The position numbers were made by a program, and so were the translations under genes. The notes under the pieces are model-generated. The model was not told where the DNA came from, did not search any database, and saw nothing but the letters and a program-made list of their open reading frames with translations. A stretch of 64,000 bases of DNA. Origin: Mobula hypostoma (Eukaryota). Shown here piece by piece: positions 1,269-38,631 of this stretch (the stretch's first letter is position 1; every line of letters starts with the position of its first letter). The stretch lies in the NCBI RefSeq assembly GCF_963921235.1, contig NC_086097.1:29700001-29764000 (forward strand), read 5' to 3'.

Positions 1269-3484
1269 TCTCTGTGTCTGACCCCGGGAGTGTGTGACGG
1301 AATGGTGTTGAGGTAGTTTCATTCTGTATCTGACCTCAGGAGTGTGTGATGGGACAGTGTGGAGGGAGTTTCACTCTGTGTCTGACCCCGGTGTGTGTGA
1401 CGGAATGGTGTTGAGGTAGTTTCATTCTGTGACTGAACCCAGTGTGTGTGATGGAATGGTGTGGAGGTAGTTTCATTCTGTGACTGAACCCCAGTGTGTG
1501 TGATGGGACAGTGTGGAGGTAGTTTCATTCTGTGACTGAACCCCAGTGTGTGTGATGGGACAGTGTGGAGGGAGCTTCACTCTGTGTCTGACCCCAGTGT
1601 GTGTGATGGAATGGTGTTGAGGTAGTTTCACTCTGTGTCTGACCCCAGTGTGTGTGATGGAATGGTGTTGAGGTAGTTTCACTCTGTGTCTGACCCCAGT
1701 GTGTGTGATGGGACAGTGTGGAGGGAGCTTCACTCTGTGTCTGACCCCAGTGTGTGTGATGGAATGGTGTTGAGGTAGTTTCACTCTGTGTCTGACCCCA
1801 GTGTGTGTGATGGAATGGTGTTCAGGTAGTTTCACTCTGTGTCTGACCCCAGTGTGTGTGACGGAATGGTGTTGAGGTAGTTTCACTCTGTGTCTGACCC
1901 CAGTGTGTGTGATGGGACAGTGTGGAGGTAGTTTCACTCTGTGTCTGACCCCAGTGTGTGTGACGGAATGGTGTTGAGGTAGTTTCACTCTGTGTCTGAC
2001 CCCAGTGTGTGTGATGGAATGGTGTTGAGGTAGTTTCACTCTGTGTCTGACCCCAGTGTGTGTGACGGAATGGTGTTGAGGTAGTTTCACTCTGTGTCTG
2101 ACCCCAGTGTGTGTGATGGGACAGTGTGGAGGTAGTTTCACTCTGTGTCTGACCCCAGTGTGTGTGACGGAATGGTGTTGAGGTAGTTTCACTCTGTGTC
2201 TGACCCCAGTGTGTGTGATGGGACAGTGTGGAGGTAGTTTCACTCTGTGTCTGACCCCAGTGTGTGTGACGGAATGGTGTGGAGGGAGCTTCACTCTGTG
2301 TCTGATCCCAGTGTGTGTGACGGAATGGTGTGGAGGTAGTTTCACTCTGTGTCTGATCCCAGTGTGTGTGACGGAATGGTGTGGAGGTAGTTTCACTCTG
2401 TGTCTGACCCCGGGAGTGTGTGATAGGACAGTGTGGAGGGTGCTTCACTCTGAGTCTGACCCCAGTGTGTGTGACGGAATGGTGTTGAGGTAGCTTCACT
2501 CTGTGTCTGACCCCAGTGTGTGTGACGGAATGGTGTGGAGGTAGTTTCACTCTGTGTCTGACCCCGGTGTGTGTGACGGGACAGTGTGGAGGTAGTTTCA
2601 CTCTGTGTCTGACCCCGGTGTGTGTGACGGGACAGTGTGGAGGTAGCTTCACTCTGTGTCTGACCCCGGTGTGTGTGACGGAATGGTGTTGAGGTAGCTT
2701 CACTCTGTGTCTGACCCCAGTGTGTGTGACGGAATGGTGTTGAGGTAGTTTCACTCTGTGTCTGACCCCAGTGTGTGTGACGGAATGGTGTTGAGGTAGT
2801 TTCACTCTGTGTCTGACCCCGGTGTGTGTGACGGGACAGTGTGGAGGTAGCTTCACTCTGTGTCTGACCCCGGTGTGTGTGACGGAATGGTGTTGAGGTA
2901 GTTTCACTCTGTGTCTGACCCCGGTGTGTGTGACGGAATGGTGTTGAGGTAGTTTCACTCTGTGTCTGACCCCAGTGTGTGTGATGGAATGGTGTTGAGG
3001 TAGTTTCACTCTGTGTCTGACCCCAGTGTGTGTGATGGGACAGTGTGGAGGGAGTTTCACTCTGTGTCTGACCCCAGTGTGTGTGACGGAATGGTGTTGA
3101 GGTAGTTTCACTCTGTGTCTGACCCCGGGAGTGTGTGATAGGAAGGTGTAAAGGGAGTTTCACTCTGTGTCTGACCCCAGTGTGTGTGATGGAATGGTGT
3201 GGAGGGAGCTTCACTCTGTGTCTGACCCCAGTGTGTGTGACGGAATGGTGTGGAGGGAGCTTCACTCTGTGTCTGACCCCGGTGTGTGTGACGGAATGGT
3301 GTTGAGGTAGTTTCACTCTGTGACTGACCCCAGTGTGTGTGATGGAATGGTGTGGAGGTAGTTTCACTCTGTGTCTGACCCCGGTGTGTGTGACGGAATG
3401 GTGTTGAGGTAGTTTCACTCTGTGACTGACCCCGGTGTGTGTGACGGAATGGTGTTGAGGTAGTTTCACTCTGTGACTGACCCC
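1269..3484. repeat. Minisatellite, 51-bp unit (occasional 52-bp variants), about 43 copies
   Basis: Unit GTTTCACTCTGTGTCTGACCCCAGTGTGTGTGA(C/T)GGAATGGTGTTGAGGTA, with a GGGACAGTGTGGAGG variant. The 17-aa periodicity in the ORF track confirms a 51-nt period. Confidence 0.97.
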
Positions 3485-3727
3485 GCAGTATCCTTGCCCT
3501 GGAAGTAGGTGATGGGATCATTACTTTATAAGTTGGCTGTAGTTGAATTCTATTTAATTCTTTGTGCCAGAATCACAAATAACCGATTGTGCACTAGTGT
3601 AAGAGGAACATCATTTGCACCAGAGTCATTGACTCTTTCTCTCCCCACAGATGCTGCCTGGCCTGCTGAGTATTTCCAACATTTTCTGCTTGAGTTGCAA
3701 GAAGTAACTTTGCCTCTCTCCTGACAG

Positions 3728-19613: not shown

Positions 19614-19758
19614 CCAGCTCGAAACACTTCACCTTCTCCCGTGTGGGGGGCAGTGCTCAGCCCCTGAGCCAGGCGGCCGTTAACCTCGACAAGCAGGACA
19701 ACACGCTGAGATTTGAGGCTCGCTTTGAGTGTGGAAATTTGCAGAAAGTTGTGAAAGT
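19614..19758 (+). CDS. AGBL3: AGBL3/CCP3-like exon d (start of the CCP N-domain)
   Basis: gtttgtctcgcag|CC...AAAGT|gtacgt; (A)SSKHFTFSRVGGSAQPLSQAAVNLDKQDNTLRFEARFECGNLQKVVKV, matching AGBL3 DNTLMFEARFESGNLQKVVKV. Confidence 0.93.
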
Positions 19759-20635: not shown

Positions 20636-21311
20636 GAGTTAAAAGCTGCAGGAAATACTCAAACATTCTGGATTCTGACTACCCACGTTCCTGACCCCTG
20701 GTGTTCTGAATTGTAACCATAGGTCCACATCCTTCCTATACTGAGGAGGTGTGTGTGACCCTATTATACTCCGTGACTATATGACTGTACAAAACTATAT
20801 GTTTTGTAACCAAAACGTAAAAAAACCTAAATGGAAGAAAAACGTAGGGGTCCGAATACGGGGCATGCGTATTTCGCGGTAGCATATACAATTCACTTAT
20901 TTTTACATATAACCCAAAATGGATTATGCAAACAACAAAGAATGTTTAATCAAACAATATATTTATAATATTACTCAAATATTACTGAAATATTAAATAC
21001 ACAACACTCCTCCCTGCTTCGCTATAAACTCCAACTCAATATAGAATGCATCTCAACTATATACACAGTATACTATATAACTACAACACAGACATCCAAT
21101 ACATAGTAAATTTTAAATTCAGGCCTAAAGATTTAATCACTGTAGAGGCTTACTTACTCTTCTGGGGTAAAGTCTTTCTTGACAAGGGGGATCACTACTA
21201 GGCAGGTGAGATTTATGGCTGTGAAAACAGTCTCAGGTTCTGGTGCCTCCTCCATGGCCGTTGTAGGAGCAGACGCCGAGCCTGTAGGAAATGGTTCTGA
21301 CTGCTCTGGAC

Positions 21312-21890
21312 ACCGTTCTTCTCCTTTTCTCGGCTTCCTTCTCTTTCTTTATCCCACTCCTTTTCTTTCTCAAGTTCCTTCTCTCTTTCTTGCTCACGTT
21401 CTTTCCCTCTATTTCCTCTCTGCTTTTCAAATCTTGTCTTTCTTTGTCTCGCCTCTCCCTTTCTTCTTTCTGGGATGTGCATCTTGATCTTTAGCTCATT
21501 GAGTATTCTCTTATTAATCCTTCTATTGCTCCCTTTATGATCTATTCTCTCCTCTTGGTTTCCTCATCCACAACATGATCTGATGAATCCTTGGTTTTTG
21601 TATCTCCAATGACTCCTTGCTCTTTGACCTTCCATTCATCCCACTGGGCTTCGGTCTTTACATCTCCTTTAACAAGCTGCTTTTTGTCTCCCTCTTGAAC
21701 CTTAATGCACACAGAGTAGATTCTGGTTCTTTATACTCACAAAAACTGAATGCTTGAATCTTTCCTGAAGCTCCTTGAACTCTCTTCCAGTTTAAAACCA
21801 GACCACATCTCGCAAGTAACTGCCTGATAAACGTATCAGAAGCTTTCACATATATATTGCCTACAAAATCTGTTGTAGTCAGACCACTGT
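21312..21890 (-). pseudogene. RBM25: Intronless RBM25 fragment (RRM plus Arg/Glu-rich region) inside the LTR element
   Basis: SGLTTTDFVGNIYVKASDTFIRQLLARCGLVLNWKRVQGASGKIQAFSFCEYKEPESTLCALR...GDKKQLVKGDVKTEAQWDEWK...DEETKRRE*IIKGAIEGLIREYS...DAHPRKKK...EREKE. Matches recalled RBM25 GPTTTVFVGNISEKASDMLIRQLLAKCGLVLSWKRVQGASGKLQAFGFCEYKEPESTLRALR. Has frameshifts and a stop. Confidence 0.92.
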
Positions 21891-22424
21891 TTTAAACCTG
21901 TTTTGGTCTGGTGTACGTGAGTTCCTGTCACAATGGTAACAGAATTTGTTTGGCCAGGTCGTTTTCTGTTTAGACATTGCAGTTTGGTTCATGCTCACTT
22001 TCATTCCTGACTGCAACTCAGTTGTGTCCCTGTCTCTGTTTCCATTGATACAACTATTTCAACTGTTCTTTTAAGTGTAAGTTATGCTTCAGTTAGGAGC
22101 TGTTTTTAAATGTTTTCCACAAACTAAGTGATCTCTCAGTGCTTCATTAAGCCCATCACTGAACTGACGATGTTCACTAATTTCTTCAATTCAGCCATGA
22201 ACACTGAAATGGACTCCCCTTCCCTTTGATTCCACTTATGAAACCTGAAGTGTTCTGCAATCAACAATGGTTTTGGTTCTAAATGTTCCTGTATTACATT
22301 CACAATATTCAGCAAAGCTCATTTCGGCTGGTTTGGTTGGAGCAGTTAATCTTCAATATGCCTTTAAACCCAATTAACTCAGCAAAAAATGGTACTTTTG
22401 CTTTAAAATATTGTTCAATTAGCT

Positions 22425-25400
22425 TGTAGGTTTTCGCAAATAAATCCAAGTGAGGTGTTTTATGTTTAATGAAGCCCGTAACACAACTTAATAAACTCCA
22501 AAACCTAAACACAAAAGCGCACAGAAAATCTTTACATAATAAAGTCATCACATCAGACCATCCTCTTAAAGTGAACCCCAACTCAATGTCAATGGTTGTG
22601 AATTTCTCCCAGTTATGTTACCCCACACAGGCCCCCCAAGCCCAGAATTCACTAAAACCAGCATCATGAGCCTGTCTGGAGCTCGGGTGAGCCACCCAGC
22701 TTGGGTCCTGTGTTCCGTGGGTGGAGGAACAGCAGTTGCCTTGGGCTCGTCCAGACCTGTGTTGACACGCTGATGGCATTGTTGTGATGCCAGGGGCATG
22801 GCAGCGGAATAGTCCAAATCTTGATGGGCTGGTTTAAGGCAATCTACTGAAATATGTTCATGTTTACCCCTCTTATCAATGGTAAAAGTCTTTTCTCTCC
22901 CTTCCAAAACATGGAATGGGGCATCGTAAGGGGGCCTCAGGGGATATTGGTGTGCATTGTGGCAGACAAAAATAGACCAGGCAGAATGCAGGTCACGGTG
23001 CTGCTGGCTGTGATGGGCGTGGGGATTGGTGAAAAGGAATTGAATTTACTGGGGAGGGTGGATCACTGTTGAGCGATCGACCAGGTGTTCATTGTGTCAA
23101 GTATGAAATCGCCTGGCACTCGTAACGACTCCCCATATACCATCTCTGCTTTTGGAGCTGTTCTGAGCCCCTGCAGGACCCATGGGAGTTGATCATGCCA
23201 ACATTCATTAGTCAGGGAAGCCCTCAGAGCAGCCTTTAAGGAGCGGTGAAACCGCTCGCGTAGGCCATTGGACTGCGGGTGATACTGAGGTTCTGGGCAA
23301 TTGCAGCCCAGAGGTCTGAAATTAATTGGGCACCATGGTCAGAGGAAATATCAGATGGTGTGCCAAACTGAACAAACCAGGTGCCGATGAGCACCCGAGC
23401 CACGTCTGTGGCCGTCATTGACGCTAGGCGGACGACCTCTGGCCACCTGGTGGTACGGTCCACCATGGCAAGAAGGTGCATGAAATTGTGGGGGGGTGGT
23501 GGATGCCCAACAAGGTCCACATGACATGGTCAAACCATCACTCAAGGACCTGAAAAGGTGCCAATGGTGCCTGAACGTGACAGCTGACACTCCACATGGG
23601 CTGCAGTCCAATCACGCACGTCCTTTCTCAGGCCATGCCAAACAAACTTTAGTGCAATCAGTTTCTGAGAGGCCTTCTGGTCCAGATGCAAGAGGCCATG
23701 TACGGAGTCGAAAACAGTCTGTTTCCAGTATGTGGACACGATGGGGTGAGGTCGACCAGTTGAGACATCACACAGGAGAGAAACCACAGCTTCCCCAAAC
23801 TTAACGTCAGCCAACCGCAGGCTCGTGACTGCTGTTCGGTAAGCCTGGACCTCTGGTCGGTAGCTTTAATACTTTATACTTTATTGTCGCCAAACAATTG
23901 GTACTAGAAAGTATAATCAACACAACAATATTTGATTCTGCGCTTCACACTCCCTGCATTACAAATATTAACTATTAAAAATATTAAAAATAGTTAAAAT
24001 TAGTAAATATTTAAAATTTAAATGATAAATCATAAATAGAAAATAGAAAAATGGGAAGTAAGGTAGTGCAAAAAAACCGAGAGGCAGGTCCAGATATTTG
24101 GAGGGTATGGCCCAGATCTGGGTCGGGATCCATTCAGCAGTCTTATCACAGTTGGAAAGAAGCTGTTCCCAAATCTGGCTGTACGAGTCTTCAAGCTCCT
24201 GAGCCTTCTCCCGGAGGGAAGAGGGACGAAAAGTGTGTTGGCTGGGTGGGTCGTGTCCTTGGTTATCCTGGCAGCACTGCTCTGATAGTGTACGGTGTAA
24301 AGTGAGTCCACGGATGGCTGCCAATCCAGCATAGCCAACCCCTATGTGTACAGCCTCAATGGCGGCTGTGAGAGGCAATCACCACCACATTATTTTTCCC
24401 CTTAATGTGTTGTATAGCCGTTGTGAACTTGGATATGTAGGCCAGGTGGTGTTGCTGCTGTGCAGACCAGGTGTCTGATATTTTGGCCATTGTGTGCATG
24501 AGAGGTTTGTGGTTAACTGATGCTGTGAAATGGCGATCTTCTAGAAGAAAATGAAAATGGCAAACGAAAATAGAGACTGAGATGCTCATGGTCAAATGTG
24601 CTGTACTTCCTTTTGGGGGGATGGAGCTGCCAGCTGACGGAGGTGAGGGGCTGCAACACACCTGACAAACTGTTCATACACAGCACCCACACCATAGTCT
24701 GAGACATCAGTAGTAATGGCTATGGGTATACAGTAGGGTCATGTTAGAAGGAGCTTGTTCAAGATCGTCAAATGCCCTGGCATTGTCCTCTGACCAGTCA
24801 TGCACGTGATTAGGGCTATTGCCTTTAAATGCACTCTACAGGGAAAGCCTGTTAAGCAGCTCGCGGAATGAAGCAGTGATAGGAATTTACCATGCCTATA
24901 AACTCTTGTAAATTTTTGGAGAGCAGGGCATTGGGAAATCCATAAAAGTGACTACTTATGATGGGAGGGGTTTTGCACCTTTTGCGGAGATGTGATGGCG
25001 CTCAAAAAGTGAGCAGAGATGAGATACGTGTTTAGATTTGGACACACTAGCAACAAGTATGTCATCCAGGTTCACAAAAGAAAATCTAAGTCTTTTAATA
25101 CAGAGTCCATTGGCTGTTGAAAAGTCTGGGCTGCGTTTTTCAGCCCAAACAGCATGCGCAGAAACTTAAGGCCAAACTGGGTTATCACAGCCATTTGGGG
25201 ACATTCCCTAAGCACACAGGCCCCTGATGGTAGCCCCTTACTAGACTGACTTCAGAAAAAATTAACTTTCTGGCTAAACACCGAAGTCTTGGATATGTGG
25301 GAGTGGGTGATGATCAGGGGTGGTGGCCTCGTTAAGGCACCGACAATCACCACATGGGCGGCAATCATCAAAGGACCCAAAGTCTTTGACATCCACAAGC

Positions 25401-26607
25401 TGGCAGTTCTTAAGATTAACTACCAGTCCCTGGGCACACAGGAAATCTGCACCGAGTAGAAGTCTAGCCACTTTAGCCAGGACAAAGTCCCATGTGTCAC
25501 ATCGTCCACTAAGGCAGAGTGTTACCCGTCGTGTCCTGTAGGTCTGGATCTTGCTGCCATTGGCGGCCTCCCGTGAGGTTTCGTCACTCTTTGCTGTTTC
25601 ATCAATAGGCAATGCTGGCAGCACACATGAGCAACTGTGTCACACAGGAAGCGTCGCCCTGAAAGGGTGTCCGTAATGAACAGTAGACGACCCTGGCAGC
25701 TGGAGCCCCTGGTGTTCACAGACCTCTGACGTCCCGATGTGCTGGCATTGTCGAAGCTGCAAGGTGGTCACCATTTCCTAGCATTCCTACCAAAGTGTGC
25801 ATGGTATAAACACACGCCAGGCATCGTCTGTTTTGCAGCCATGGACATCCTTATGATGGGGGCCTTTCTCTGTTGAGGTTGAGAGAGGAGGAGGAATGGT
25901 GAACCACTGCCTGGCTGTGTGTAGACTATCAGCCACTTTAGCAAGCTCCCTACAGTCCTTCACAGGTGCATTAGCAAGGGCTAAGCAGACTTGATCAGGC
26001 ATTTGCTACACAAAGAGTTCTTTAAAAATAATTTCCCAGGAGAGACAGCACGTGGTTCGCTAGCTCCGATGGTTTAGCATCGTCGAGGTCAGACAGGGTG
26101 TGCTCAGATTCCAATAGTCCACAAGTCTGTAAAAGGAGAGTTTATTGTGATTAGTATTTATCATGTTCAGGCGGGTGTTCTAGTAGACTCACCACTCTCA
26201 CAGATGTGGAATTGCTGAGCGACGCTGCTATGTAGTAGAAATTGATGTCAGTGGCCGTGATTTCTCACGGAATGAACTGGGCCTCAGCTTGTACAAACCA
26301 AGCGACGGCATTTTGCTCCCAAAACTCCAGCAGTTTCAAAGTGACTGCGTTGGTCGACACGTTCATTAACTCTGGAATCATCCTGGAGCATCGGGGTTGC
26401 CAATGTAGGCTTTTGCAAATAAAACAAAGTATGTTTAATGAAACCTGTAACACATATTATTGCACTCAAAAACCTCAACACAACAGTGTGCTAAAAAATC
26501 CTTACGTAACCACATCATCACATCAGAACAGACTCTTAAAGTGAGACCCTAACCCTATGTGGGTGGTTGTGAATTATGTACATTTCATCCAATTCTGTTA
26601 TCCTACA
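22425..26607 (-). mobile_element. Near full-length degraded Gypsy LTR retrotransposon nested in the gag of the RBM25-carrying element
   Basis: LTRs 22425-22627 and 26404-26607 (TGTAGG...ACA). PBS-like TTGGCAACCCCGATG and PPT CTTGGGGGGCCTG, both on minus. 4-bp TSD AGCT/AACT (one mismatch). Gag LKLLEFWEQNAVAWFVQAEAQF, protease GRRFLCDT, RT RPCGDCRCLNEATTPDHHPLPHIQDF, RNase H KYSTFD, integrase LAMVDRTTRWPE. Confidence 0.9.
23865..24320 (-). mobile_element. Rex1/Babar-type LINE 3' fragment inserted in the inner Gypsy pol
   Basis: AARITKDTTHPANTLFVPLPSGRRLRSLKTRTARFGNSFFPTVIRLLN, followed by an AT-rich 3' UTR and AAAGTAT tail repeats (minus). Confidence 0.85.
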
Positions 26608-26965
26608 AACTCAGTGTATGTATATATATATATGTTATCCGTAGTGTAATCAAACGCGCCAATCTTTCTGATGCTGTCAGCCATTTCGGTCTTTTTTTAT
26701 GATTATATTACTTGGTACTCACTGTTTATGAGCCCATAAATCTTTCTGTTTGCTGCCTTTTTTTAAAGCTCGACATGTCTTCCCTTCTGAAGAACACGTA
26801 CTTATTTTATCCGACTGTTTCTCTCTGCACTTTTTTTTTAACTCGAATGTCTCGTTACACTTAATCAAACAATATATTTATAACATTACTCAAATACTAC
26901 TGAAATATTAAAATACAGTACACAACAGTTTGATGTTTGACTGTATAATGGTGTATGATTAAATA

Positions 26966-27210
26966 ACTATGATGGTGTGTGAGTGTATGACGTTATGATG
27001 GTGTGTGAGTGTATGTCATTATGATGGTGTGTGAGTGAATGTCGTTATGATGGTGTGTGAGTGTATAACTATGATGGTGTGTGAGTGAATGTCATTATGA
27101 TGGTGTGTGAGTGTATGTCATTATGATGGTGTGTGAGTGTATGTCATTATGATGGTGTGTGAGTGAATGTCGTTATGATGGTGTGTGAGTGTATGACCGA
27201 ATGATGGTGT
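26966..27210. repeat. Minisatellite, ~26-bp unit, about 9 copies
   Basis: Tandem copies of ATGATGGTGTGTGAGTG(T/A)ATGTC(A/G)TT. Confidence 0.93.
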
Positions 27211-27285
27211 ATGCCTGCGTGACCAACTATGATCTTGTAAGATTCTACAATCCAGTGTGACCGTATGACCTTTTGACCTCTGCAG

Positions 27286-37281: not shown

Positions 37282-38631
37282 AAAGTCAATACCTAGACCA
37301 GGCTGGAAGCCCAAGAACTTATTCGTCATATATGTCGGGAAAGCACTTTATCCTTTTGTTTACAACTCGCTGCTTTTCCACTGCCCCTAGCACCCACCAC
37401 TCTCTGCGTAAAACAAAAATTTCCTGCACAACACCTTTTTGCCTCCTTCACCTTAAATCAATGCCCTCTGATGTTAGACATTTTGACCCTGGGGAAAAGA
37501 CACTGGCTCTCTACCTATGCCTCTCATCACTTTATAAACTCCTCAGTCTCTGCCGCTCCGGAGAAAACTGCCCAAGTTTGTCCACGGGGGATTCAGCTGG
37601 CGGACCATGCAGGAAGTTGACCTGGTAGGGTATCTGGGTCCGAGATTTCTGTTGGAATTGGTGATCACTTGGTGGATCTGTCCCACCATCACACCACCAT
37701 CCTCACATGGCAACTAACCAAGGAACTGATAGGAGCTGCTGCCTGACCTGCCAAGTTCCTCCAGCATTTTGTGCGCATTGCTCTGGATTTCCAGCATCTG
37801 CAGAATCTATGTCATAAAATCTTATTTAATTTTATTTAGGACTACAGCACAGTAACAGGCCCAGTCAGCTCACGCTGGCAAATTATACCCATTTGGCCAA
37901 TTAACCTACCAATCCGTACATTTTTGGAATATGGGAAGAAACTGGAGCACCCGGAATAAACCCACACAGTTGCTTCCAGGCAGCAGCAGAACTGAATCAG
38001 ATCACTGGCACTGTAATAGCATTACACTAACCGTTACACTACATTGGGGAAGGGAAGGGTTAGATTGATCCTAGAATAGGTTAAAGAGTTATCACAACAT
38101 CGTGGGCTGAAGGGCCTGTACTGTGCTGTACGGTTCCATGTTCTATGTTCCATGTTCTATCTACCATGTTACATGTTCTATGTACCATGTTCTATGTTCC
38201 ACATTCTATCTACCATGTTACATGTTCTATGTATCATGTTCTATGTTCCACGTTCTATCATGCTGCTCCATTTGTTGTTTTGCAGCAGCACGGTATAAAA
38301 ATTACTCTAAGTTACAAAAATGAGTAAATAGTGCAAAAGATGAAGAATAAGCTGGTGTACATGGACCTTTCAGAAATCTGATGGCAGTGGAGAAGAAGCT
38401 GTTCCTAAAACACTGAGTGTGGGTCTTCAGGCTCCCGAACCTCCTCCCTGATGGTAGTCATGAGAAGAGGACATGTCCAGGATGGTGAAGGTCTTTGCTG
38501 ATGGATGCTGCCTACTTATAGCGCTGCCTTTTGACAATGCCCATGATGGCGGGGAGGACTGTGCCTGCGGTGGACAGAGATCAAAGGATTCTTGGAGATT
38601 CATGAATGTGGGTTAGTGTTGCTAGGGTAAC

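What the first reader, a model, noticed from the sequence alone, without database searches (positions are those of the whole stretch)
20795..26927. LTR retrotransposon carrying a spliced RBM25 fragment in place of pol
Seen in sequence (minus strand): 5' LTR, gag ending in a degenerate Zn knuckle (CYHCDRNSRTPDQNRFK, ~21895-21945), an abrupt switch at ~21890 to RBM25 RRM and Arg/Glu-rich coding sequence without introns, a switch back at ~21312 to the Gypsy integrase C-terminal tail (ERLYPRRVSKPLQ*LNL*), PPT, 3' LTR. There is no poly(A) or separate TSD around the RBM25 piece, and protease/RT/RNase H/integrase core are missing. Established: LTR elements can capture host mRNA by template switching during reverse transcription. 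Inference: this is a host splicing-factor cDNA transduced by a non-autonomous Gypsy family, possibly amplified genome-wide and possibly once expressed as a Gag-RRM chimera. In this copy the RBM25 frame is -1 relative to gag and is decayed. Read on the + strand, the AGBL3 pre-mRNA carries antisense RBM25 sequence.
Basis: partly seen in the sequence, partly recalled or inferred. Interest (0 to 1): 0.82.

Follow-up and report, generated by a model that had tools for sequence, protein, structure and literature searches.

The report
Retrotransposon family carrying captured RBM25 cDNA
An old jumping-gene family in this cartilaginous fish swapped its copying enzymes for a spliced piece of the host splicing-factor gene RBM25 and then spread to more than a thousand places, a known kind of gene capture at an unusually large scale, with no sign that the captured piece did useful work.

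Summary
Capture confirmed; anatomy corrected. The RBM25 piece (21313-21893, minus) joins host exons without introns (host gene at C1:99.79-99.84 Mb). It belongs to a genome-wide non-autonomous Gypsy-type family: 913 loci match the 5' capture junction and 1,162 an RRM motif (at most 2 mismatches, controls 0); rough estimate about 1,600 copies. The founder took about 1.07 kb of cDNA (9 exons) between microhomologies of 7 and 9 nt shared with a parent family still in the genome, replacing RT, RNase H and integrase but keeping protease. Two corrections. First, the window's gag/RRM join is a later deletion of about 730 nt; the true junction lies after protease and is in frame. Second, 4.2 kb of the 6.1 kb interval is a different, nested Gypsy element. 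Copies form a star tree, decay evenly across codon positions, and 17 of 27 share a frame-shifting deletion after the RRM. A passive passenger is most likely; selection on the fusion is not excluded. The mechanism is known (Tan 2016). I found no report of this family or this scale in the papers searched. This scan noted the same family at another locus of this genome.

The parts
26861..26927 (-). 5' LTR remnant of the outer (RBM25-carrying) element; the rest of the LTR, the PBS and the start of the leader are deleted
   Evidence: 92% to 20946-21007; block comparison with family copy L013
26608..26860 (-). leader and 5' start of outer gag
   Evidence: matches family copies L004, L012, L013, L027 at 72-78%
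22425..26607 (-). nested second Gypsy-type LTR element (LTRs about 26405-26607 and 22425-22629, 20% diverged; PBS; PPT; decayed gag-pol with integrase); not part of the RBM25 family
   Evidence: LTR pair; Pfam rve E 3e-9 and Integrase_H2C2 E 4e-8; 4-bp TSD with 3 of 4 letters matching
21891..22424 (-). remainder of outer gag, ending inside the zinc knuckle; broken by stops and frameshifts
   Evidence: translation; 70-81% to family copies
21889..21893 (-). secondary deletion join of this copy (about 730 nt lost: end of gag, protease, linker, true 5' capture junction, RBM25 exon 2 end, exon A and half of exon B); 3-nt microhomology
21313..21893 (-). captured RBM25 cDNA: exons B (3' half), C, D, E, then part of G and the start of H; exon F and parts of G deleted; 87% identical to the host gene in exons B-E
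21020..21312 (-). 3' capture junction and parent integrase C-terminal tail plus 3' untranslated part
   Evidence: tail matches parent copy L051; junction motif scan
21007..21019 (-). polypurine tract
   Evidence: read in sequence; same tract before the 3' LTR of family copies
20797..21006 (-). 3' LTR of the outer element
   Evidence: flank-to-LTR join also on a contig of organism B

Best explanation
During reverse transcription of an autonomous Gypsy-type element, RT switched onto a co-packaged spliced RBM25 mRNA and back again at two short shared stretches (9 nt in exon H / integrase tail; 7 nt in exon 2 / protease-RT linker). This replaced about 3 kb of RT-RNase H-integrase with about 1 kb of host cDNA (junctions and microhomology shown; template switching inferred from established LTR biology). 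The product kept the LTRs, PBS, leader, gag, protease and PPT, so it was copied in trans by the parent's enzymes (inferred) in one burst contemporaneous with the parent's own (shown), shedding GA-rich sequence in heritable deletions on the way (shown). The RBM25 piece rode along as a passenger; the advantage, if any, was a short RNA (2.8-2.9 kb element) with all cis signals and an uninterrupted gag frame (inferred). All copies examined are now dead. The window's copy later lost its protease and 5' junction and received a second LTR element inside gag.
For: Exon joins without introns. Same 5' junction at 913 loci and RRM motif at 1,162 loci, both strands, reversed controls 0. Parent family continues as pol at both points. 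Chance of 7 or 9 matching letters at a random join: 6e-4 and 5.5e-5. Two LTRs, PBS, PPT and different flanks in family copies; a perfect 5-bp TSD in 1 and a 4-of-5 TSD in 1 of the 4 copies with both ends readable. Star tree with internal branches at most 0.016 against tips of 0.065-0.15. Copy-to-copy divergence flat over codon positions (0.157, 0.179, 0.156), 0-fold 0.170 against 4-fold 0.144. Protease-linker of 22 family copies and 4 parent copies not separable (0.232 within family, 0.187 within parents, 0.211 between; 1 fixed difference), so little time passed between capture and burst. A 119-nt frame-shifting deletion after the RRM is shared by 17 of 27 copies.
Against: The 5' junction is in frame. 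Family and host differ at 20-21 synonymous sites and 0-2 replacement sites; 20 is above the 11.4 expected if the host ran at the copies' rate in this region (P 0.013). The excess loses significance at the per-copy rate of about 0.11-0.12 seen in the protease region and LTRs (P 0.06-0.12), but I could not assign these changes to the host or the element lineage. A star-shaped burst leaves almost no internal branches, so it has little power to show selection during the active period. The 27 copies were top-ranked hits, not a random sample.
Confidence: 0.8

Rival explanations
1. Same capture, but the in-frame Gag-protease-RBM25 fusion was translated and selected: protease released, or Gag displayed, an RBM25 RRM that helped package, export or protect the element's RNA, and this drove the burst.
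For: In-frame 5' junction with the alanine-threonine codons shared in phase; the pol linker reads straight into RBM25 in most copies, with open stretches of up to 189 aa before and 112 aa after the join. 20-21 synonymous against 0-2 replacement differences from the host. Shared deletions spare the RRM; exon F is kept by few (96 motif hits with one mismatch already spent). The chimera outnumbers native parent tails about 3 to 1 among the first 100 of 349 listed tail hits (counted by eye).
Against: In-phase microhomology alone makes an in-frame join likely. No codon-position signal among copies and no lineage-specific substitutions between deletion types. No separation from the parent in protease. 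Retention of the RRM is partly built into how I picked copies. The deletions fall in GA-rich repeats where slippage is expected.
Confidence: 0.14
2. Capture by read-through and splicing: an element inserted in or upstream of RBM25 was spliced to host exons, and only the 3' end was formed by template switching.
For: The 5' junction lies within 10 nt of the exon 2 / exon A boundary, and the parent has a GT close to that point.
Against: The shared letters extend 10 nt into exon 2, upstream of the acceptor, and three letters there follow the host rather than the parent, which needs a template that already had exon 2 joined to exon A. No internal family sequence was seen in the 150 kb around the host gene with 7 query copies; only two LTR-like pieces upstream.
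Confidence: 0.04
3. A LINE-made RBM25 retrocopy landed in an already deleted LTR element, or the locus spread by segmental duplication.
For: LINE fragments are abundant in the window.
Against: No poly(A) or TSD at the insert; the cDNA ends in mid-CDS; microhomology with the parent at both ends; the same junctions at hundreds of dispersed loci with unrelated flanks.
Confidence: 0.02

Closest known systems
LTR-mediated retrocopies of animals (Tan et al. 2016, PMC5131818; abstract and sections 5, 6, 9 read)
   Same: Partial spliced mRNA replaces internal ORFs; microsimilarity at both switch points (their median 6 bp; here 7 and 9 nt); no poly(A) or TSD at the insert; both LTRs kept; further rounds as a non-autonomous element.
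   Different: Their cases are young and few (18 insertion sites for nine fly retrocopies); here at least 1,162 loci, old and decayed, with serial deletion sub-lineages. No cartilaginous fish among the species named in the sections read.
Maize Bs1 (as described in PMC5131818 section 9 and passages of PMC13317346; the primary paper PMC2899935 was not held)
   Same: LTR element carrying transduced host coding fragments, all copies sharing switch points.
   Different: Bs1 has 1-5 copies and fragments of three genes and is reported to make a hybrid protein; here one gene, more than a thousand copies, none intact among 27.
Crocodilian ERV captures of KIT-ligand (CrocERV29) and nectin3 (CrocERV31) (PMC4299795; passages)
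   Same: Ancient vertebrate LTR elements multiplied after taking a host mRNA.
   Different: Those are retroviral lineages with 9 and 6 copies and intact ORFs (purifying selection reported for the KIT-ligand ORFs); this is Gypsy-type, pol is lost, and no selection is detected.
Transducing (oncogene-carrying) defective retroviruses (recalled, no call)
   Same: Host cDNA fused in frame to gag-derived sequence, replication genes lost, helper needed.
   Different: No env-sized region here, no sign of benefit from the cargo, germ-line amplification only.

Membership tests
LTR-mediated retrocopy (Tan 2016) | Insert is spliced mRNA (introns lost) | tested here: met
   9 exons, 8 joins in the family; 3 joins crossed directly in the window copy
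LTR-mediated retrocopy (Tan 2016) | Internal ORFs replaced, not interrupted | tested here: met
   parent L051 has about 3 kb with RNase H and integrase domains between the two junction points
LTR-mediated retrocopy (Tan 2016) | Microsimilarity at both switch points | tested here: met
   7 nt and about 9 nt; chance 6e-4 and 5.5e-5
LTR-mediated retrocopy (Tan 2016) | No poly(A) or TSD around the insert | tested here: met
   junction read-outs in 27 copies
LTR-mediated retrocopy (Tan 2016) | Secondary retroposition with shared switch points | tested here: met
   913 and 1,162 motif hits, controls 0
LTR-mediated retrocopy (Tan 2016) | Co-transcription from the LTR | not testable with these tools
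   only contigs of runs guessed to be RNA were offered
Ty3/Gypsy LTR retrotransposon | Two LTRs with TG...CA ends, PBS and PPT | tested here: met
   family copies L012, L013, L015, L018; in the window copy the PBS and most of the 5' LTR are deleted
Ty3/Gypsy LTR retrotransposon | Domain order protease - RT - RNase H - integrase in the autonomous parent | tested here: inconclusive
   protease (weak, E 0.0035), RNase H (E 5e-5) and integrase zinc finger (E 2e-7) lie in Gypsy order in L051; RT itself gave no Pfam hit in the 2 fragments tried
Ty3/Gypsy LTR retrotransposon | 4-6 bp target-site duplication | tested here: inconclusive
   5 bp perfect in L013, 4 of 5 in L018, 3 of 5 in L015, none in L012 or the window copy
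Ty3/Gypsy LTR retrotransposon | RT phylogeny within Metaviridae clades | not tested
   no reference RT set was fetched
Functional retrogene / domesticated fusion gene | Intact reading frame | tested here: not met
   each of 27 copies has a stop or an indel in the RBM25 exon 2-E stretch; more than 1,100 copies were not read
Functional retrogene / domesticated fusion gene | Purifying selection on the captured frame | tested here: inconclusive
   none after insertion; before the burst the synonymous excess is borderline and cannot be assigned to a lineage

The most novel reading that the evidence does not exclude
A Gypsy element recruited the RRM of a host splicing factor as an in-frame part of its Gag-protease polyprotein, in the place of RT, kept it under purifying selection, and thereby out-replicated its own autonomous parent to well over a thousand copies; the antisense copies now sitting in introns could also supply small RNAs against an essential splicing gene.
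Probability: 0.14. Interest if true: 0.85.

Novelty: new variant of a known kind. Interest (0 to 1): 0.5.

Why it matters
LTR capture of host mRNA is known, but the cases in the papers I read have a handful of copies. Here one capture event produced more than a thousand dispersed copies of a splicing-factor cDNA in a vertebrate genome, with the parent family, both switch points and the donor gene all still readable. That makes it a clean natural record of template switching and of how deletion sub-lineages take over a burst. It preserves an old RBM25 isoform with a 48-nt exon seen otherwise only in a shark protein among the 120 hits held. It will also confuse RBM25 annotation, read mapping and gene-family counts in this lineage. 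Whether the in-frame RRM helped the element is now testable with a few outgroup cDNAs.

Tried and rejected
A Pfam PWI search missed RBM25 and found two other PWI genes; the gene was found with a C-terminal protein query. I first read the 5' junction as sitting on the exon A splice acceptor and dropped this when exon 2 letters were found upstream. Motif-to-motif distances modulo 3 were too scattered by indels to settle the gag-to-protease frame. The window copy's missing 5' part gave false alignment and was masked. A possible independent retrocopy at C1:193.29 Mb proved to be another family copy. A metagenome scan for an outgroup RBM25 exon gave only distant eukaryotes (59-65%). Sequencing runs: no RNA holder listed; one depth-3 contig of a run guessed to be RNA matches 21158-21299 exactly, which cannot be told from DNA or intronic pre-mRNA. 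None of the 120 proteins held has a protease-linker part; a dedicated database search for fused proteins was not done, so their existence elsewhere is open. No absolute date is given: the only direct rate I read (7e-10 per site per generation, epaulette shark, PMC10587355 passages) would give an implausible number of generations. Literature: RBM25 with retrotransposon, 29 papers, none relevant among the 20 listed; RBM25 with retrocopies, 0; searches listed nothing on this family. Repeat libraries such as Repbase or Dfam and most subscription journals were not searchable; the supplements of Tan 2016 were not read and may hold higher-copy cases.

Full report
What is in the window. Read on the minus strand, 26,927-20,797 holds two elements, one inside the other. 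The outer one begins with 67 nt of LTR that match 21,006-20,946 at 92%; the rest of that LTR and the PBS are deleted. Its gag is split at 26,607/22,425 by a 4.2-kb second LTR element with its own LTR pair (20% diverged), PBS, PPT, integrase domains and a 4-bp target duplication matching at 3 of 4 letters. After the gag remainder come the RBM25 piece (21,893-21,313), a tail, a polypurine tract and the 3' LTR. The whole lies in an intron of an AGBL-type carboxypeptidase gene on the plus strand (exons near 19,712 and 27,285). The genome is 3.48 Gb. That it is a cartilaginous fish is my inference from the host RBM25 sharing a 14-aa stretch exactly with a Heptranchias protein and with none of the other 119 proteins held.

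The insert is spliced RBM25. The RRM frame hits vertebrate RBM25 at 73-82% identity. The host gene lies at C1:99.79-99.84 Mb; the C-terminal query found no second locus among 16 candidates. Ten exons with GT-AG borders give an open frame. The window piece runs from the middle of exon B through C, D and E, crossing introns of 1,738, 2,778 and 4,824 nt without a trace, then jumps to part of G and the start of H. It is 87% identical to the host over B-E.

It is a large family. A DNA search with the RBM25 piece gave 2,719 first-look candidates, 40 scored, at 75-84%. A 25-letter motif across the 5' capture junction has 913 matches and an RRM motif 1,162 matches at up to 2 mismatches, evenly on both strands, with 0 for the reversed controls. 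A binomial correction from the share of exact hits gives about 1,600 copies from either motif (rough). I examined 26 other copies, all top-ranked hits. Four with both LTRs readable are 2.83-2.92 kb long, with LTR pairs 16-22% apart; TSDs are 5 of 5 in L013, 4 of 5 in L018, 3 of 5 in L015 and unreadable in L012. Contigs of organism B cross this locus's flank-LTR join and 3' junction and cover the nested element at about 97-98%, so this insertion predates that split; in organisms B, F and G more than 100 contigs each cover a site in the RBM25 piece, so the family is there too (depth is not a copy number).

The true junctions. Other copies carry the end of gag, a protease (Pfam RVP in L005) and a linker before RBM25 begins. 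The capture runs from 10 nt before the end of exon 2 to 28 nt into exon H, 1,072 nt on today's cDNA, 9 exons spread over 29 kb. The window's gag/RRM join is a later deletion of about 730 nt at a 3-nt microhomology; none of the other 39 scored hits to it spanned both sides. A parent family is present: a motif just upstream of the junction, followed by a letter other than the family's, has 475 exact hits, and about 94 of the first 100 listed continue as pol (counted by eye). Parent and host share TGCCACA at the 5' switch and GAGAAGAAA at the 3' switch; random joins reach 7 or 9 letters with probability 6e-4 and 5.5e-5. In parent L051 about 3 kb with RNase H and integrase domains fill the gap. 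Among the first 100 of 349 exact hits to the tail motif, about 60 are preceded by RBM25 sequence, about 20 by the native parent sequence and about 20 by other deletions (by eye).

Frame and selection. The 5' join is in frame: the pol linker reads into RBM25 in most of the 23 copies where the join was located, with open stretches of up to 189 aa before and 112 aa after it. In the window copy the RBM25 frame at the 3' join differs from the parent's tail frame. Every one of 27 copies has a stop or indel in exon 2-E. Copies differ from each other evenly over codon positions (0.157, 0.179, 0.156) and form a star, with the host on a short branch of 0.037. Deletions are inherited: 17 of 27 share a 119-nt frame-shifting deletion after the RRM, 7 do not, 3 are unclear, and no substitution separates the groups. 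Against the host, the family differs at 20-21 synonymous and 0-2 replacement sites. That is more synonymous change than the 11.4 expected at the rate the copies show in this region (P 0.013), which would mean selection on the element if part of it arose there. But the copies were chosen for likeness in this very region; the protease part gives 0.116 per copy and the LTRs 0.08-0.11, where the excess is weak (P 0.06-0.12 at 0.11-0.12). Family and parent proteases are not separable (1 fixed difference), so there was little time for a selected phase. I could not obtain an outgroup cDNA.

How it most likely works. Shown: spliced insert, both junctions, microhomology, parent family, amplification, heritable deletions, neutral decay. 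From established LTR biology (Tan et al. 2016, PMC5131818, sections 5, 6 and 9 read): double template switching in the particle, then copying in trans as a non-autonomous element. Inferred: the chimera did well because it is short, keeps all cis signals and still has gag and protease in one frame; the cargo was a passenger (0.8). The rival, a selected Gag-protease-RRM fusion, stays at about 0.14. RBM25's role in splicing is recalled, not from a call.

Against what is known. It meets every sequence feature of an LTR-mediated retrocopy that I could test. Described cases are small: 18 sites for nine fly retrocopies and 1-5 copies for maize Bs1 (PMC5131818), 9 and 6 copies for crocodilian captures (PMC4299795, passages). 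Passages of PMC13317346 and PMC6431247 describe capture by LTR elements and the siRNA conflict it can cause with donor genes in maize, and name no case like this. Searches for RBM25 with retrotransposon, retrocopies or elasmobranch genome found nothing on it; repeat libraries were not searchable. Verdict: real, a known mechanism at an unusual scale, probably without function today. Interest 0.5.

Noticed in passing
G000:C1:99832586-99832633 (L039): A 48-nt in-frame RBM25 exon (exon A) whose 14-aa core is identical in a Heptranchias protein (P0003) and absent from the other 119 RBM25 proteins held; the captured mRNA included it. Possibly a cartilaginous-fish-specific cassette exon.
   Followed up: partly
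window 22425-26607: Nested Gypsy-type element of another family inserted in the outer gag, LTRs 20% diverged; pieces of it are shared with organism B.
   Followed up: partly
window about 23870-24310: A further very high-copy repeat sits inside the nested element's pol (highest depth; 73% match at 38366-38457); it looks like a LINE 3' end (recalled), a third layer of nesting.
   Followed up: no
G000 genome-wide (L052, L053): The parent family also has other internal-deletion derivatives joining at the same tail point; at least one upstream variant recurs at several loci, suggesting further non-autonomous sub-families and a hot spot for switching.
   Followed up: no
G000:C1:99810351-99810685 (exon G): Copies lack about 140 nt of the host's Arg-Glu/Arg-Asp repeat at similar positions; either an early deletion in the element or later repeat growth in the host gene.
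   Followed up: no
window 26942-27249: 26-nt tandem array (9 copies) directly beside the 5' LTR, just before the carboxypeptidase exon; similar words lie beyond the 3' LTR, so the element may have inserted into it.
   Followed up: no
window 26861-26927 and 20940-21006: The surviving 61 aligned letters of the outer LTR pair differ at only 2 places, far less than other copies' LTR pairs; may be a small-sample effect in a conserved part.
   Followed up: no
window 1476-3572: Long tandem repeat array giving stop-free frames of 323-445 codons.
   Followed up: no
G000:C1:99876648-99876890 and 99906403-99906636: Two LTR-like pieces related to this family lie 36 and 66 kb upstream of the RBM25 start codon.
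   Followed up: no
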